A stretch of 64,000 bases of DNA from Escherichia coli (GTDB taxonomy: Bacteria; Pseudomonadota; Gammaproteobacteria; Enterobacterales; Enterobacteriaceae), in the NCBI RefSeq assembly GCF_029227855.1, contig NZ_CP074356.1. One strand, written 5' to 3'. Positions 5,601 through 8,600 of the stretch are shown piece after piece. Position numbers: made by a program. Position 1 is the first letter of the stretch. Each line of letters begins with the position of its first letter.

Positions 5601-8600
5601 CAGCTCTTCGCCGAAGTACCAGGTGAGATGACCCGGCATATAGCCTATCTCTGGCGTTTGTTTGTCTGCGGCGTCTGGGAATGCGCAAATGGAATAACCA
5701 TTCAGTGGGTTATCGCCGTGGCGAAGCGCCAGAAAAGCCGCCGGGCCGTGGCAAAGGGAGATAACAAAACGGTCATTTTTGATTGCCCACTGTAAAGCGG
5801 CAGCCACGTCCTGGCTTTCAGGTAAACCAATAAGTGCGCCATGACCACCAGGAACAAAGATTGCTGCATATTCGCTGTCTGCGTTGAGGCTGGCGACAAC
5901 ATCCGCGAGTTTCTTCGGATTGCGGAACAACGATTTATGCTGCTCAAAGAATGGCATTACTTTTTCATCTTTGTGCGGCATAGCCCAGTATTCAAACTTG
6001 GTCATCAGACCGGAAATGGTCGCCACTTCGAATTCGAAACCTGCAGCGTGGAGATGATACAACGGCAGCAACGTTTCAATCGGATGGTTACCGGTCGAGA
6101 ACAGTTTTCCGTTATCGGTCGGCAAATAACGTTCGTCCGCGGCGATCACCAGAATTTTATGTTTACCGCGATACGGTTTTGGATAGTCCACGCCATCAAG
6201 ATCAGAGACAGGACTGGTATATTGGCTAAGCGAATATTCTGAAGGGAAGAATGCATTATCTTCAGCAATATCGACCTGCGGATTTTTACTTGTTTGAACA
6301 GTCATAGTGTATTCCTTATTGTTGCTTAGTTAGGGTAGTCACTATATTTGCGACTGAGCTGGTCGCTATTTTTAACCAGGCTGGAAAATTGAGTCAATAT
6401 ATCGAAAGCGGTAGTCGGCGGGTGTAAGTATGTAATGATGATGCTGCACTGGTGTTGAATATTATTCACGCCAAATTTTCCTTATTGAGCTACGTCGTCG
6501 CAAGTGGCCTCAATGATTTTAGACCATTATCAGAGGTACGGGGCGGCGGGGAGAGATTTAGTGCTGTGGAATATTGTGGTGCTGATGAATATTTATATCC
6601 CGGATTGGTAGAGAAAAAGCTTTTTCTATGCACTTTTTTTGCAAATATTTCTGTATGGGAGGCGGTTTTGTTGCAGATTAATTCATAAAGAAATGCATTT
6701 GGGTGTTGGCTGGAAGAGTCGCGGGTAGATGTTATTGTGCCAGCAGGGGCAGGGTAAGGTACTGTATCGATATGCTTTGGCAATTGCATGTGCCGCAGAG
6801 GGAGATGAAATGCCAATAAAAAAGCCTGAGTTCGATGAGGGACGAACTCAGGCTAGTGTTAACTTTTACAGTAACACGCCGCGGCGCGTTGGCTGATTAG
6901 AACTGGTAGACTAAGCCCACAGCAACGATATCATCGGTAGCGATGCCGTTTGCTTTGTAGAAGTCGTCGTCGTTGTCCAGCAGGTTGATTTTGTAATCAA
7001 CGTAGGTGGACATGTTTTTGTTGAAGTAGTAAGTCGCACCAATATCAACGTATTTAACCAGATCTTTATTGGTGTAACGTGGGTCGCCGTTGCCGTCATG
7101 AGCCCAACCACCTAAATCCTTACCTTTAGATTGCAGGTAAGCGATGGACGGGCGTAGGCCGAAGTCGAACTGATACTGAGCAACAACTTCAAAGTTTTGG
7201 GTTTTGTTCGCAATACCACCTCTGTCAATGTCGTTATTGTCTTTTCCGCTGCCATATGCAGTCATATTACGTGTTTCTGCATACATTGCCGCTAAATAGA
7301 CATTATTCGCATCATATTTAGCACCGACTGTCCATGCTTCAGCTGTTTCACCACCAGCATATTTATTCGAGCGTTGCTCACCTAAACCAGTAGCACGTTG
7401 GTTATCAGTACGGTCAGAGTTTGAATATGCAGCCCCGAGGCTTAACCCGAAGTCAAAGTCATAGGAAGTGGACATACCGAAACCGTCACCATTTTCTTTA
7501 GACAGTTTACGATTATTACCATTACCAGAACCTTCTTGATCCCAAAGCCCACCCGATCCTTCATTATTACCCTGATATTGCAGAGCAAAGTTCAGGCCAT
7601 CGACCTGACCAAAGAAGCCATTGTTACGGTAGGTTGCAACACCATTAGCACGACCGTTCATGAAGTTGTCGGCACCAGCATAGGTATCGCCACCAAATTC
7701 TGGCAGCATATCGGTCCATGCTTCGATGTCATATACGACACCGTAGTTACGACCATAGTCGAAAGTACCATTCTGACCAAAGCCTAAACCTGCAAATGCC
7801 AGACGCGTTGCGGTATTACCTTTGTCGCTTTCAGGACCGTTTGCGCCAATGTTAAATTCCCACTGACCATAACCAGTGAATTGGTCAGCGATCTGAGTTT
7901 CACCTTTGAAACCGATACGGGCATATGACATGTCGCCATCGCTGCCAGCATCATCAGAGAAGTAGTGCAGGCCCGCTACTTTTCCGTACAAATCCAGTTT
8001 ATTACCATCTTTATTATAGACTTCAGCCGCATTTGCTGCGCCAGCAACTAATAACGCCGGGACCAGCATTGCCAGAACTTTTCTTTTCATTATGTATTCC
8101 CTTGTGATTATAATCTTCATGAATATATCAATAAGTGCCGTTATCCAAAAAAAAAGCACATTTGGATACTATTCTATGAAGTTCATTTTATTTTAAAGAT
8201 TACATGTAACAAATGTATTTAAAAGATTTCAAAATGTTTCTAATTTATTTAATATAATTCAGAATTATGAATTCTAAATATAAATATTCATGAAAATTAT
8301 AAATGTATATCAATATGTTATGAGTTGAGTGGAAACATGGGGGGTATCAATGAGTGTTGCGCCAAACGGCTGGTGTGATCACGCGCACATTAATGAAGGC
8401 ATAAAAAAAGCCGGCATCATGCCGGCCCAAAAAATATAAACAAGACGATAAAAGGCTAATAACGGAGGCATCATGACACAGAAAAATAAAAAGGTATAAT
8501 TGTAATCAGTGCTAATATATTGATTGAATGAATTAATAAAGCCGATATCAAAGATAAATAAAATCGCTCAAAACGATTTTTCCTGTATTCACTGCCATTG

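What the first reader, a model, noticed from the sequence alone, without database searches (positions are those of the whole stretch)
8403..8499. Candidate RseX-like sRNA whose complement mimics a ribosome-binding site
On the plus strand, AACGGAGGCATCATGACACAG looks like an SD plus start codon for an 8-codon ORF (MTQKNKKV). On the minus strand the same region lies just upstream of a clean intrinsic terminator, and about 90 nt downstream of a TACAAT -10-like hexamer. That minus-strand RNA would carry CCUCC plus CAU, able to pair with SD/AUG regions of target mRNAs. This fits the porin-repressing sRNA RseX, which I recall mapping between yedR and yedS.
Basis: partly seen in the sequence, partly recalled or inferred. 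Interest (0 to 1): 0.4.

Follow-up and report, generated by a model that had tools for sequence, protein, structure and literature searches.

The report
RseX small RNA gene, already known

Summary
Window 8403..8492 (minus strand) is rseX. It is a full-length Rfam RF01401 match (96.7 bits, threshold 50). It differs from K-12 b4603 by 2 substitutions and 1 indel. It lies between drpB (yedR) and yedS, as in K-12.

The ORF is the mirror image of RseX nucleotides +12..+31. This segment is predicted to pair with the Shine-Dalgarno sequence and AUG of ihfB, a published RseX target. ompA, ompC and fimB are instead predicted to pair with the conserved core, +30..+50.

One side lead goes beyond the annotation:
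- A published re-analysis of dRNA-seq data puts the K-12 TSS at +30, not +1.
- Directly upstream lies an extended -10 element, TGTCATGAT.
- Its key bases are unchanged in 12 lineages, including four that lack the TACAAT promoter.
- The conserved RNA may therefore be a ~61-nt form with a 5' seed that lacks CCUCC and CAU.

Novelty: already known. Interest: low.

The parts
8403..8492 (-). rseX, annotated long form (90 nt here, 91 nt in K-12)
   Evidence: Rfam RF01401 full-length match, 96.7 bits. Alignment to K-12 b4603 shows 2 substitutions (+9 U for A, +26 C for U) and one fewer U in the tail.
8499..8504 (-). -10 hexamer TACAAT of the annotated promoter; its -35 is poor (TTCAAT at 8523..8528, 3 of 6)
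   Evidence: Read directly from the sequence. The promoter scan did not call it. It is kept in 100 of 112 collected loci, but has no equivalent in E. fergusonii, Pseudocitrobacter, L128 or L132. PMC8313858 cites 5' RACE support for this start.
8470..8478 (-). Candidate internal extended -10 promoter, TGTCATGAT (RNA +15..+23)
   Evidence: It sits at -15..-7 of the TSS listed at K-12 2033678 (PMC7967276 Table S1). T-15, G-14, A-11 and T-7 are unchanged in 0 of 44 cells, against 11 of 55 changes at the other block positions. Its function is inferred.
8403..8463 (-). Inferred short RseX form (61 nt), starting at the G of GUUAUUAGCC
   Evidence: TSS at +30 in a published re-analysis of dRNA-seq data. 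Predicted to have an unstructured 5' seed followed by the terminator.
8464..8469 (-).
   Evidence: All five sites +24..+28 vary, with 12 variants among 111 homologues (pi 0.48); C29 (8464) is invariant. C26 is present in at least 2218 of 5426 E. coli genomes and U26 in at least 1918.
8443..8463 (-). Conserved core and predicted seed, GUUAUUAGCCUUUUAUCGUCU (RNA +30..+50)
   Evidence: Nearly invariant. Predicted to pair with ompA -21..-7, ompC -15..+1 and fimB -2..+22.
8429..8442 (-). U-rich single-stranded linker (RNA +51..+64)
   Evidence: Sequence and fold. An Hfq-binding role is inferred from the known architecture of Hfq-dependent sRNAs.
8403..8428 (-). Intrinsic terminator hairpin and 7-U tail
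   Evidence: Terminator scan, fold, and one compensatory pair in C. amalonaticus. The loop of this hairpin is implicated in fepA repression (PMC11979758).
8473..8499 (+). 8-codon ORF MTQKNKKV, with the SD-like GGAGG at 8464..8468; a mirror image of the RseX 5' half, not a supported gene
   Evidence: Translation. The SD-like motif is absent in K-12 (GGAAG) and in other lineages.
8473..8500 (+). Promoter-like site ATGACA-16-TATAAT (11 of 12 matches) on the opposite strand
   Evidence: Promoter scan. Its -10 overlaps the rseX -10 by 2 bp. No TSS is listed for it in PMC7967276 Table S1.
8720..9022 (+). drpB (yedR), the divergent neighbour
   Evidence: NCBIfam DrpB match and the K-12 start mapped through the alignment. 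Promoter-like sites at 8639..8666 and 8658..8685 fit the published TSSs, which map to 8672 and 8692.
6897..8090 (-). yedS-type OmpC-family porin, intact here; downstream neighbour on the same strand
   Evidence: ORF of 397 aa. NCBIfam porin OmpC subfamily, 547.8 bits. It is a pseudogene in K-12.

Best explanation
Window 8403..8492 (minus strand) is the rseX gene. It encodes an Hfq-dependent, trans-acting small RNA that represses translation by pairing with the ribosome-binding regions of target mRNAs.

Published for K-12:
- RseX represses ompA and ompC.
- It binds and represses fimB and ihfB.
- It represses fepA through its terminator loop.
- It is silenced by H-NS.

Inferred here:
- The conserved core +30..+50 (GUUAUUAGCCUUUUAUCGUCU) is the seed for ompA, ompC and fimB.
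CCUCC), is the mirror image of the ihfB SD and AUG, and is the ihfB-pairing module of the long form.
- The gene probably has two nested promoters. One is the annotated TACAAT promoter, giving the 90/91-nt RNA. The other is an internal extended -10 promoter (TGTCATGAT, 8470..8478), giving a ~61-nt RNA that starts at 8463 with the seed at its 5' end.
- I put about 0.45 on this nested-promoter part. The confidence given below is for the identity and the general mechanism.
For: Identity:
- Rfam RF01401 full-length match, 96.7 bits against a gathering score of 50.
- 2 substitutions and 1 indel relative to K-12 b4603.
- Gene order drpB, rseX, yedS as in K-12.
- The locus is present in 4909 of 5426 complete E. 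coli genomes.

Architecture:
- Terminator with a 7-U tail and a U-rich linker.

Mechanism from the literature:
- PMC8313858.
- PMC11979758.
- PMC7648144.

Predicted pairing:
- ompA -21..-7 with RseX 37-50, total -13.2 kcal/mol; 3 of 60 shuffles do as well.
- ompC, total -13.1 kcal/mol; 1 of 60 shuffles does as well.
- fimB -2..+22 with RseX 30-50, total -17.9 kcal/mol.
- ihfB -11..+8 with RseX 12-31, total -17.1 kcal/mol for this allele and -14.0 for the K-12 allele.

Silencing:
- The region is very AT-rich, with GC of 0.20-0.33 over 8000..8700, which fits H-NS binding.

Nested promoter:
- TSS listed at K-12 2033678, which is +30.
- TGnCATGAT lies exactly at -15..-7 of that TSS.
- The key bases are unchanged in 0 of 44 cells, against 11 of 55 changes at the other positions of the block.
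- The 5 nt after the block are hypervariable and the sequence is invariant from C29/G30 onward.
- The TACAAT equivalent is absent in E. fergusonii, Pseudocitrobacter, L128 and L132, which still carry the TG-extended -10 and the core.
Against: Against identity and mechanism:
- No transcript can be observed with these tools.
- The annotated promoter is weak by consensus and the scan did not call it.
- The ompA pairing site has never been mapped experimentally, so the seed assignment is a prediction.

Against the nested promoter:
- Published 5' RACE and Northern blots report ~91-nt and ~75-nt species, not ~62 nt.
- The +30 TSS comes from a secondary analysis of a weakly expressed gene.
- CATGAT matches only 4 of 6 consensus positions and there is no good -35.
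- The homologues in L128, L130 and L132 fall below the Rfam threshold, and their homology rests on synteny and a 12-14-nt core.
- A conserved stem around a variable loop would also give the pattern conserved, variable, conserved.
Confidence: 0.95

Rival explanations
1. Only the annotated 90/91-nt RNA from the TACAAT promoter is real. The +30 5' end is a processing product or noise. The conserved block +12..+23 is kept because it acts within the RNA, either as the stem of a 5' hairpin with a variable loop or as the anti-AUG seed for ihfB.
For: - 5' RACE and Northern blots support a ~91-nt primary transcript (PMC8313858).
- The minimum-energy fold places +19..+24 against +29..+34, with CCUC in the loop.
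- The Rfam model draws the same hairpin.
- +12..+31 is complementary to the ihfB ribosome-binding region.
Against: - No covariation supports the hairpin.
- The G21C allele (941 genomes at 100% to the 40-nt query, and 36 of 112 metagenome loci) breaks both candidate helices and the ihfB duplex. There is no compensating change in RseX, and the ihfB region is invariant.
- E. fergusonii, L128 and Pseudocitrobacter have lost CAU but keep TG, A-11 and T-7.
- Four lineages have no TACAAT equivalent.
- The published Northern probe (+12..+38) overlaps a +30 RNA by only 9 nt, so it could not have detected one.
Confidence: 0.4
2. The plus-strand SD-like motif and 8-codon ORF (MTQKNKKV, 8473..8499) form a real small-protein gene.
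For: GGAGG lies 4 nt before an ATG, and the frame is open for 8 codons. The ORF stays open in relatives because the underlying sequence is conserved.
Against: - The SD-like motif is allele-specific: GGAAG in K-12, and GCGGTT, GGGGCT and others elsewhere.
- The +9 polymorphism changes codon 4 from Lys to Asn.
- The only strong plus-strand promoter-like site has its -35 on the ATG itself and would start transcription downstream of the ORF.
- No plus-strand TSS is listed upstream.
- Everything here is explained by the opposite-strand RNA.
Confidence: 0.02
3. The element is mainly a cis-acting leader of the downstream porin gene yedS, with read-through of the terminator, rather than a trans-acting RNA.
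For: rseX lies 312 nt upstream of an OmpC-family porin on the same strand. This pairing is kept in E. whittamii, C. amalonaticus, E. fergusonii, Pseudocitrobacter, L128 and L132.
Against: - The terminator is strong, with 7-8 U.
- rseX is retained in K-12, where yedS is a pseudogene.
- Published trans effects come from plasmid-borne RseX.
- No pairing with the yedS ribosome-binding region is predicted: -5.3 kcal/mol, and all 60 shuffles do as well or better.
Confidence: 0.04

Closest known systems
RseX of E. coli K-12 (b4603, Rfam RF01401)
   Same: Same locus, strand, neighbours, terminator and core. The RNA differs by only 2 substitutions and 1 indel, and it is a full-length covariance-model match.
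   Different: - +26 is C, giving CCUCC, where K-12 has CUUCC.
- +9 is U, where K-12 has A.
- The tail has 7 U rather than 8.
- The neighbouring yedS is intact here and a pseudogene in K-12.
- The C26 allele is predicted to bind the ihfB and ompC SD regions 2-3 kcal/mol more tightly. This is inference.
Porin-repressing Hfq sRNAs MicA, RybB, MicC and MicF
   Same: They work the same way: a short unstructured seed pairs at or near the ribosome-binding site of omp mRNAs, and a terminator with a U tail binds Hfq. MicF/ompC and MicC/ompN also sit next to porin genes (one search lists these pairs; the rest is general knowledge).
   Different: - There is no sequence relationship; each has its own Rfam family and the window matches only rseX.
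- RseX is not controlled by sigma-E or OmpR. It is silenced by H-NS (PMC8313858).
- It lies upstream of its neighbouring porin on the same strand rather than divergent from it, and is not predicted to target it.
SdsR and ArrS (terminator-loop repression of fepA)
   Same: RseX shares with them a repression of fepA that depends on the far 5' UTR and needs the terminator loop, Hfq and RNase E (PMC11979758). The terminator loop AUGAU context is identical here and in K-12.
   Different: That mechanism does not appear to involve base pairing, and it is separate from the seed-based repression discussed here.
IstR-1/IstR-2 and the short SraB (PsrD) form: sRNAs with nested promoters sharing one terminator
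   Same: The inferred arrangement of a long and a short RseX from two promoters ending at one terminator resembles these cases. An internal promoter for PsrD is discussed in PMC8313858. IstR is from my own knowledge.
   Different: For RseX the short form has not been shown on a gel. It rests on one TSS list and on comparative sequence evidence.

Membership tests
RseX (Rfam RF01401; E. coli b4603) | Sequence and structure match to the family covariance model at or above the gathering score | tested here: met
   96.7 bits against 50, model positions 1-94 of 94, E = 4.9e-12.
RseX (Rfam RF01401; E. coli b4603) | Orthology with the annotated K-12 gene by sequence | tested here: met
   2 substitutions and 1 indel across the RNA; the flanks are also about 98% identical.
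RseX (Rfam RF01401; E. coli b4603) | Map position between drpB (yedR) and yedS, divergent from drpB | tested here: met
   K-12 annotation, annotation of the identical strain, and family assignments of both neighbours.
RseX (Rfam RF01401; E. coli b4603) | Rho-independent terminator with a U tail preceded by a U-rich stretch (Hfq-binding module) | tested here: met
   Stem of 9 pairs, 7-U tail, and U-rich +51..+64. Hfq binding itself cannot be tested here.
RseX (Rfam RF01401; E. coli b4603) | Own sigma-70 promoter giving a primary transcript of about 91 nt | tested here: inconclusive
   TACAAT is correctly placed, but the -35 is 3 of 6 and the scan did not call it. Published 5' RACE supports +1. 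A published TSS list gives +30 instead.
RseX (Rfam RF01401; E. coli b4603) | Complementarity to the ompA and ompC ribosome-binding regions | tested here: met
   Predicted duplexes are better than 57 of 60 (ompA) and 59 of 60 (ompC) shuffles. This is prediction only; the ompA site is unmapped.
RseX (Rfam RF01401; E. coli b4603) | Expressed RNA that binds Hfq and lowers OmpA and OmpC | not testable with these tools
   Shown for K-12 in the literature. Not tested for this allele.

The most novel reading that the evidence does not exclude
The evolutionarily conserved and natively made RseX may be a ~61-nt RNA, not the annotated 91-nt species.
- It would start at 8463 from an internal extended -10 promoter (TGTCATGAT, 8470..8478) and carry the seed GUUAUUAGCCUU at its 5' end.
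- The 5' extension with the CAU ... CCUCC anti-ribosome-binding-site module would be a younger, Escherichia-clade addition that brings ihfB into the regulon.
- The hypervariable patch would double as promoter discriminator and anti-SD. Strains would then differ in target strength: C26 occurs in at least 2218 of 5426 genomes, against U26 in K-12.
- This could also help explain why probes aimed at +12..+38 failed to detect native RseX.
Probability: 0.4. Interest if true: 0.45.

Novelty: already known. Interest (0 to 1): 0.2.

Why it matters

The side lead would matter to sRNA specialists. RseX has been hard to study because its native expression went undetected for about two decades. If the native species starts at +30, then probes, overexpression constructs and target predictions based on the 91-nt K-12 form would need revisiting.

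All RseX experiments used the K-12 allele. At least 41% of complete E. coli genomes instead carry the C26 allele seen here, including ST131-type strains. That allele makes a perfect anti-Shine-Dalgarno sequence in the long form.

Tried and rejected
- **yedS as a target.** No pairing with the yedS ribosome-binding region is predicted: -5.3 kcal/mol, and all 60 shuffles do as well or better.
- **The 5' hairpin as a conserved structure.** RNAalifold finds no covariation and prefers a different helix. The whole-RNA fold has a z-score of only -1.5. The common G21C allele breaks both candidate helices.
- **The mini-ORF as a gene.** Rejected; see the rival explanations.
- **The plus-strand 11-of-12 promoter-like site (8473..8500) as the drpB promoter.** Rejected. 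The published drpB TSSs map to 8672 and 8692 and fit two other sites.
- **Primary TSS data.** None could be reached:
  - The Cappable-seq GTF is truncated in the library.
  - Thomason 2015 is not held.
  - Douchin 2006 is not held.
  - The Term-seq supplements list no rseX 3' end.
- **A third loop allele (AACUCC).** Seen in a GTDB 'E. coli' representative, but absent from RefSeq complete E. coli genomes.
- **First duplex search with duplex_subopt.** It returned meaningless whole-length duplexes. I replaced it with a windowed, accessibility-corrected scan.
- **rseX in other genera.** None was found next to drpB in Klebsiella aerogenes, Atlantibacter or Lelliottia.
- **Salmonella.** The exact-pattern scan did not recover it, although the literature reports an RF01401 hit there.
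Full report
**1. Observation**

- On the plus strand, GGAGG (8464..8468) is followed four bases later by ATG (8473). The frame 8473..8499 reads MTQKNKKV*.
- On the minus strand there is a terminator-like hairpin (stem 8428..8408, 9 pairs, loop of 3) with a 7-U tail ending at 8403.
- The hexamer TACAAT lies at 8504..8499 on the minus strand.

Taken alone, these signals are weak. One terminator was found against 0.6 expected in shuffles. The promoter scan did not report TACAAT, because the best -35 is TTCAAT, 3 of 6.

**2. Identity**

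- A scan of the whole window against Rfam gives a full-length match to RF01401 (rseX) at 8403..8492 on the minus strand. It scores 96.7 bits against a gathering score of 50, with E = 4.9e-12.
- In K-12 MG1655, rseX (b4603) is annotated at 2033649..2033739, between drpB (formerly yedR) and the yedS pseudogene.
- The window aligns to that region with 98% column identity. Inside the RNA there are three differences: U for A at +9, C for U at +26, and 7 rather than 8 terminal U.
- Gene order is the same. drpB lies on the plus strand at 8720..9022. A yedS-type OmpC-family porin lies on the minus strand at 6897..8090 and is intact here.
- The 501-bp region occurs in 4909 of 5426 complete E. coli genomes. 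PGAP records do not annotate the RNA.

**3. What is published about the mechanism (all for the K-12 allele)**

- RseX is a 91-nt RNA found as a multicopy suppressor of RseP essentiality. It lowers ompA and ompC mRNA in an Hfq-dependent way (Douchin 2006, as described in PMC8313858 and PMC7648144).
- Native RseX was not detected until hns was deleted, so H-NS silences it. RseX binds and represses fimB and ihfB. The ompA pairing site has not been mapped (PMC8313858).
- The 3' part of RseX, through its terminator loop, represses fepA in a way that does not seem to involve pairing (PMC11979758).
- The very low GC of the surrounding DNA (0.20-0.33 across 8000..8700) fits H-NS binding.

**4. Which part of the RNA does what (predictions made here)**

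I ran an accessibility-corrected duplex scan against published targets.

| Target region | RseX region | Total energy (kcal/mol) | Shuffles as good |
|---|---|---|---|
| ompA -21..-7, including its SD | +37..+50 | -13.2 | 3 of 60 |
| ompC, K-12 allele, -15..+1 | +29..+44 | -10.9 | not run |
| ompC, window allele, -28..-9 | +25..+43 | -13.1 | 1 of 60 |
| fimB -2..+22 | +30..+50 | -17.9 | not run |
| ihfB -11..+8 (CCGGAGGAAUCAUGACCAA) | +12..+31 | -17.1 (window), -14.0 (K-12) | not run |

- In the ihfB duplex, C25-C29 pair with the SD and C18-A19-U20 pair with the AUG.
- The yedS ribosome-binding region gives nothing: -5.3 kcal/mol, and all 60 shuffles do as well or better.

**5. Variation**

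- C26 (CCUCC) is present in at least 2218 complete E. coli genomes. U26 (CUUCC, as in K-12) is present in at least 1918.
- A third common haplotype has C21 with C26. It occurs in 941 genomes, including ST131 strains.
- I scanned metagenome contigs with a pattern covering only the core and the terminator. This gave 111 true homologues, 52 unique sequences.
  - +12..+23 is CTGTGTCAT[G/C/T]AT, with only +21 varying.
  - All five positions +24..+28 vary, with 12 variants.
  - C29, G30 and the following bases are essentially invariant.
- The ihfB ribosome-binding region is 100% identical over 51 nt in 5329 of 5425 genomes. The G21C allele thus introduces an uncompensated mismatch into the predicted ihfB duplex.
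- No covariation supports the 5' hairpin drawn by Rfam.

**6. An internal promoter (side lead, inferred)**

*Published TSS.* A published re-analysis of dRNA-seq data lists the rseX TSS at 2033678, which is +30 of the annotated RNA. It describes a 29-bp downstream shift (PMC7967276 text and Table S1). In the window this is 8463, the G of GUUAUUAGCC.

*Sequence element.* The sequence at -15..-7 of that start is TGTCATGAT. This is TGn followed by a hexamer that has the A at position 2 and the T at position 6, which is an extended -10 element.

*More distant relatives.* I fetched the region next to drpB homologues.
- E. fergusonii carries an rseX match above the Rfam threshold (68.6 bits).
- Three others carry weaker syntenic matches: metagenome L128 (43.7 bits), Pseudocitrobacter L130 (29.7 bits) and metagenome L132 (28.2 bits).

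*Comparison anchored on GUUAUUAGCC, 12 lineages.*
- The block reads TGTCATGAT, TGTCATTAT, TGCAATGAT, TGCCAGAAT, TGCAACCAT or TGTCATCAT.
- T-15, G-14, A-11 and T-7 never change (0 of 44 cells). The other five positions change in 11 of 55 cells.
- By my hypergeometric arithmetic this is p of about 0.001, ignoring relatedness.
- The following 5-6 nt are 33-50% identical in the 10 lineages other than K-12 (K-12: 83%). The next 14 nt are 86-100% identical.
- The TACAAT position has no -10-like equivalent in E. fergusonii (TCGGAC), L128 (TAACAA), Pseudocitrobacter (TCAGAC) or L132 (AGCTAC).
- E. fergusonii, L128 and Pseudocitrobacter have also lost the CAU that would pair with a start codon.

*Interpretation.* The pattern is what a promoter, its discriminator and a transcript start would give. 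A ~61-nt RNA from 8463 would carry the conserved seed at its 5' end. It would keep the predicted ompA, ompC and fimB sites and lose the ihfB site.

*Caveats.*
- Published 5' RACE and Northern blots report ~91-nt and ~75-nt species. However, the Northern probe (+12..+38) overlaps a +30 RNA by only 9 nt.
- The TSS comes from a secondary analysis of a weakly expressed gene, and I could not reach the primary data.
- Three of the distant homologues fall below the Rfam threshold.

I put about 0.4-0.45 on this reading.

**7. Comparison with known systems, and verdict**

- The element is a member of the RseX family. All sequence-level defining features were tested and met. Expression and Hfq binding cannot be tested here.
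- It works like the other porin-repressing Hfq sRNAs (MicA, RybB, MicC, MicF), but it is unrelated to them in sequence and is controlled differently.
- The finding is already known.
- Interest is low (0.2). The internal-promoter lead is the only part that goes beyond the annotation.

Noticed in passing
window 16828..16914 (+): Full-length DsrA sRNA (Rfam RF00014, 102.5 bits against 60), as expected about 8 kb from rseX in E. coli.
   Followed up: no
window 40062..40103 (-): Match just above threshold to Rfam RF02751, ES036 (CssrF) sRNA: 42.1 bits against 37.6. Its context was not examined.
   Followed up: no
window 49988..50290 (+): Cluster of three tRNA genes: Gly(GCC), Cys(GCA) and Leu(UAA).
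   Followed up: partly
window 6897..8090 (-): The yedS-type OmpC-family porin next to rseX is an intact 397-aa ORF here (NCBIfam porin OmpC subfamily, 547.8 bits). It is a pseudogene in K-12. PGAP names it 'porin OmpC' in the identical strain.
   Followed up: partly
window 8473..8500 (+): The best promoter-like site in the region (ATGACA-16-TATAAT, 11 of 12) is on the strand opposite rseX. Its -35 is the mini-ORF's ATGACA, and its -10 overlaps the rseX -10 by 2 bp, giving a back-to-back arrangement. No TSS is listed for it in K-12. It may be silenced or spurious, as is common in AT-rich, H-NS-bound DNA.
   Followed up: partly
window 8639..8692 (+): Two promoter-like sites (TTGACT-16-AAAAAT with TG, and TGGAAA-16-CATAAT) predict starts that coincide with the two published drpB TSSs, K-12 2033469 and 2033449, which map to window 8672 and 8692.
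   Followed up: yes
window 8720 vs 8741 (+): The drpB start differs between annotations. K-12 RefSeq and the experimental paper use the ATG that maps to 8720 (100 aa). PGAP in the identical strain starts at 8741 (93 aa).
   Followed up: partly
window 8100..8300: Extreme AT-rich trough (GC 0.20) between the rseX terminator and the yedS start.
   Followed up: no
L122 2154..2252 (-); L128 2157..2249 (-); L130 ~2131..2205 (-); L132 2151..2262 (-): Diverged rseX-like RNAs sit at the syntenic spot between a porin gene and drpB in E. fergusonii, Pseudocitrobacter cyperus and two metagenome contigs. In L130 and L132 the core continues as GUUAUUAGCCUU..GUUGUUUUACAC, unlike E. coli, and the terminators differ.
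   Followed up: partly
L124 471..522 and L125 474..525 (-): Sub-threshold Rfam hits to a plastid 3' UTR family (RF04351). In L125 the hit lies antisense to a tRNA gene; in L124 it lies at an unannotated tRNA-like stretch. Almost certainly an artefact of tRNA-like sequence.
   Followed up: no
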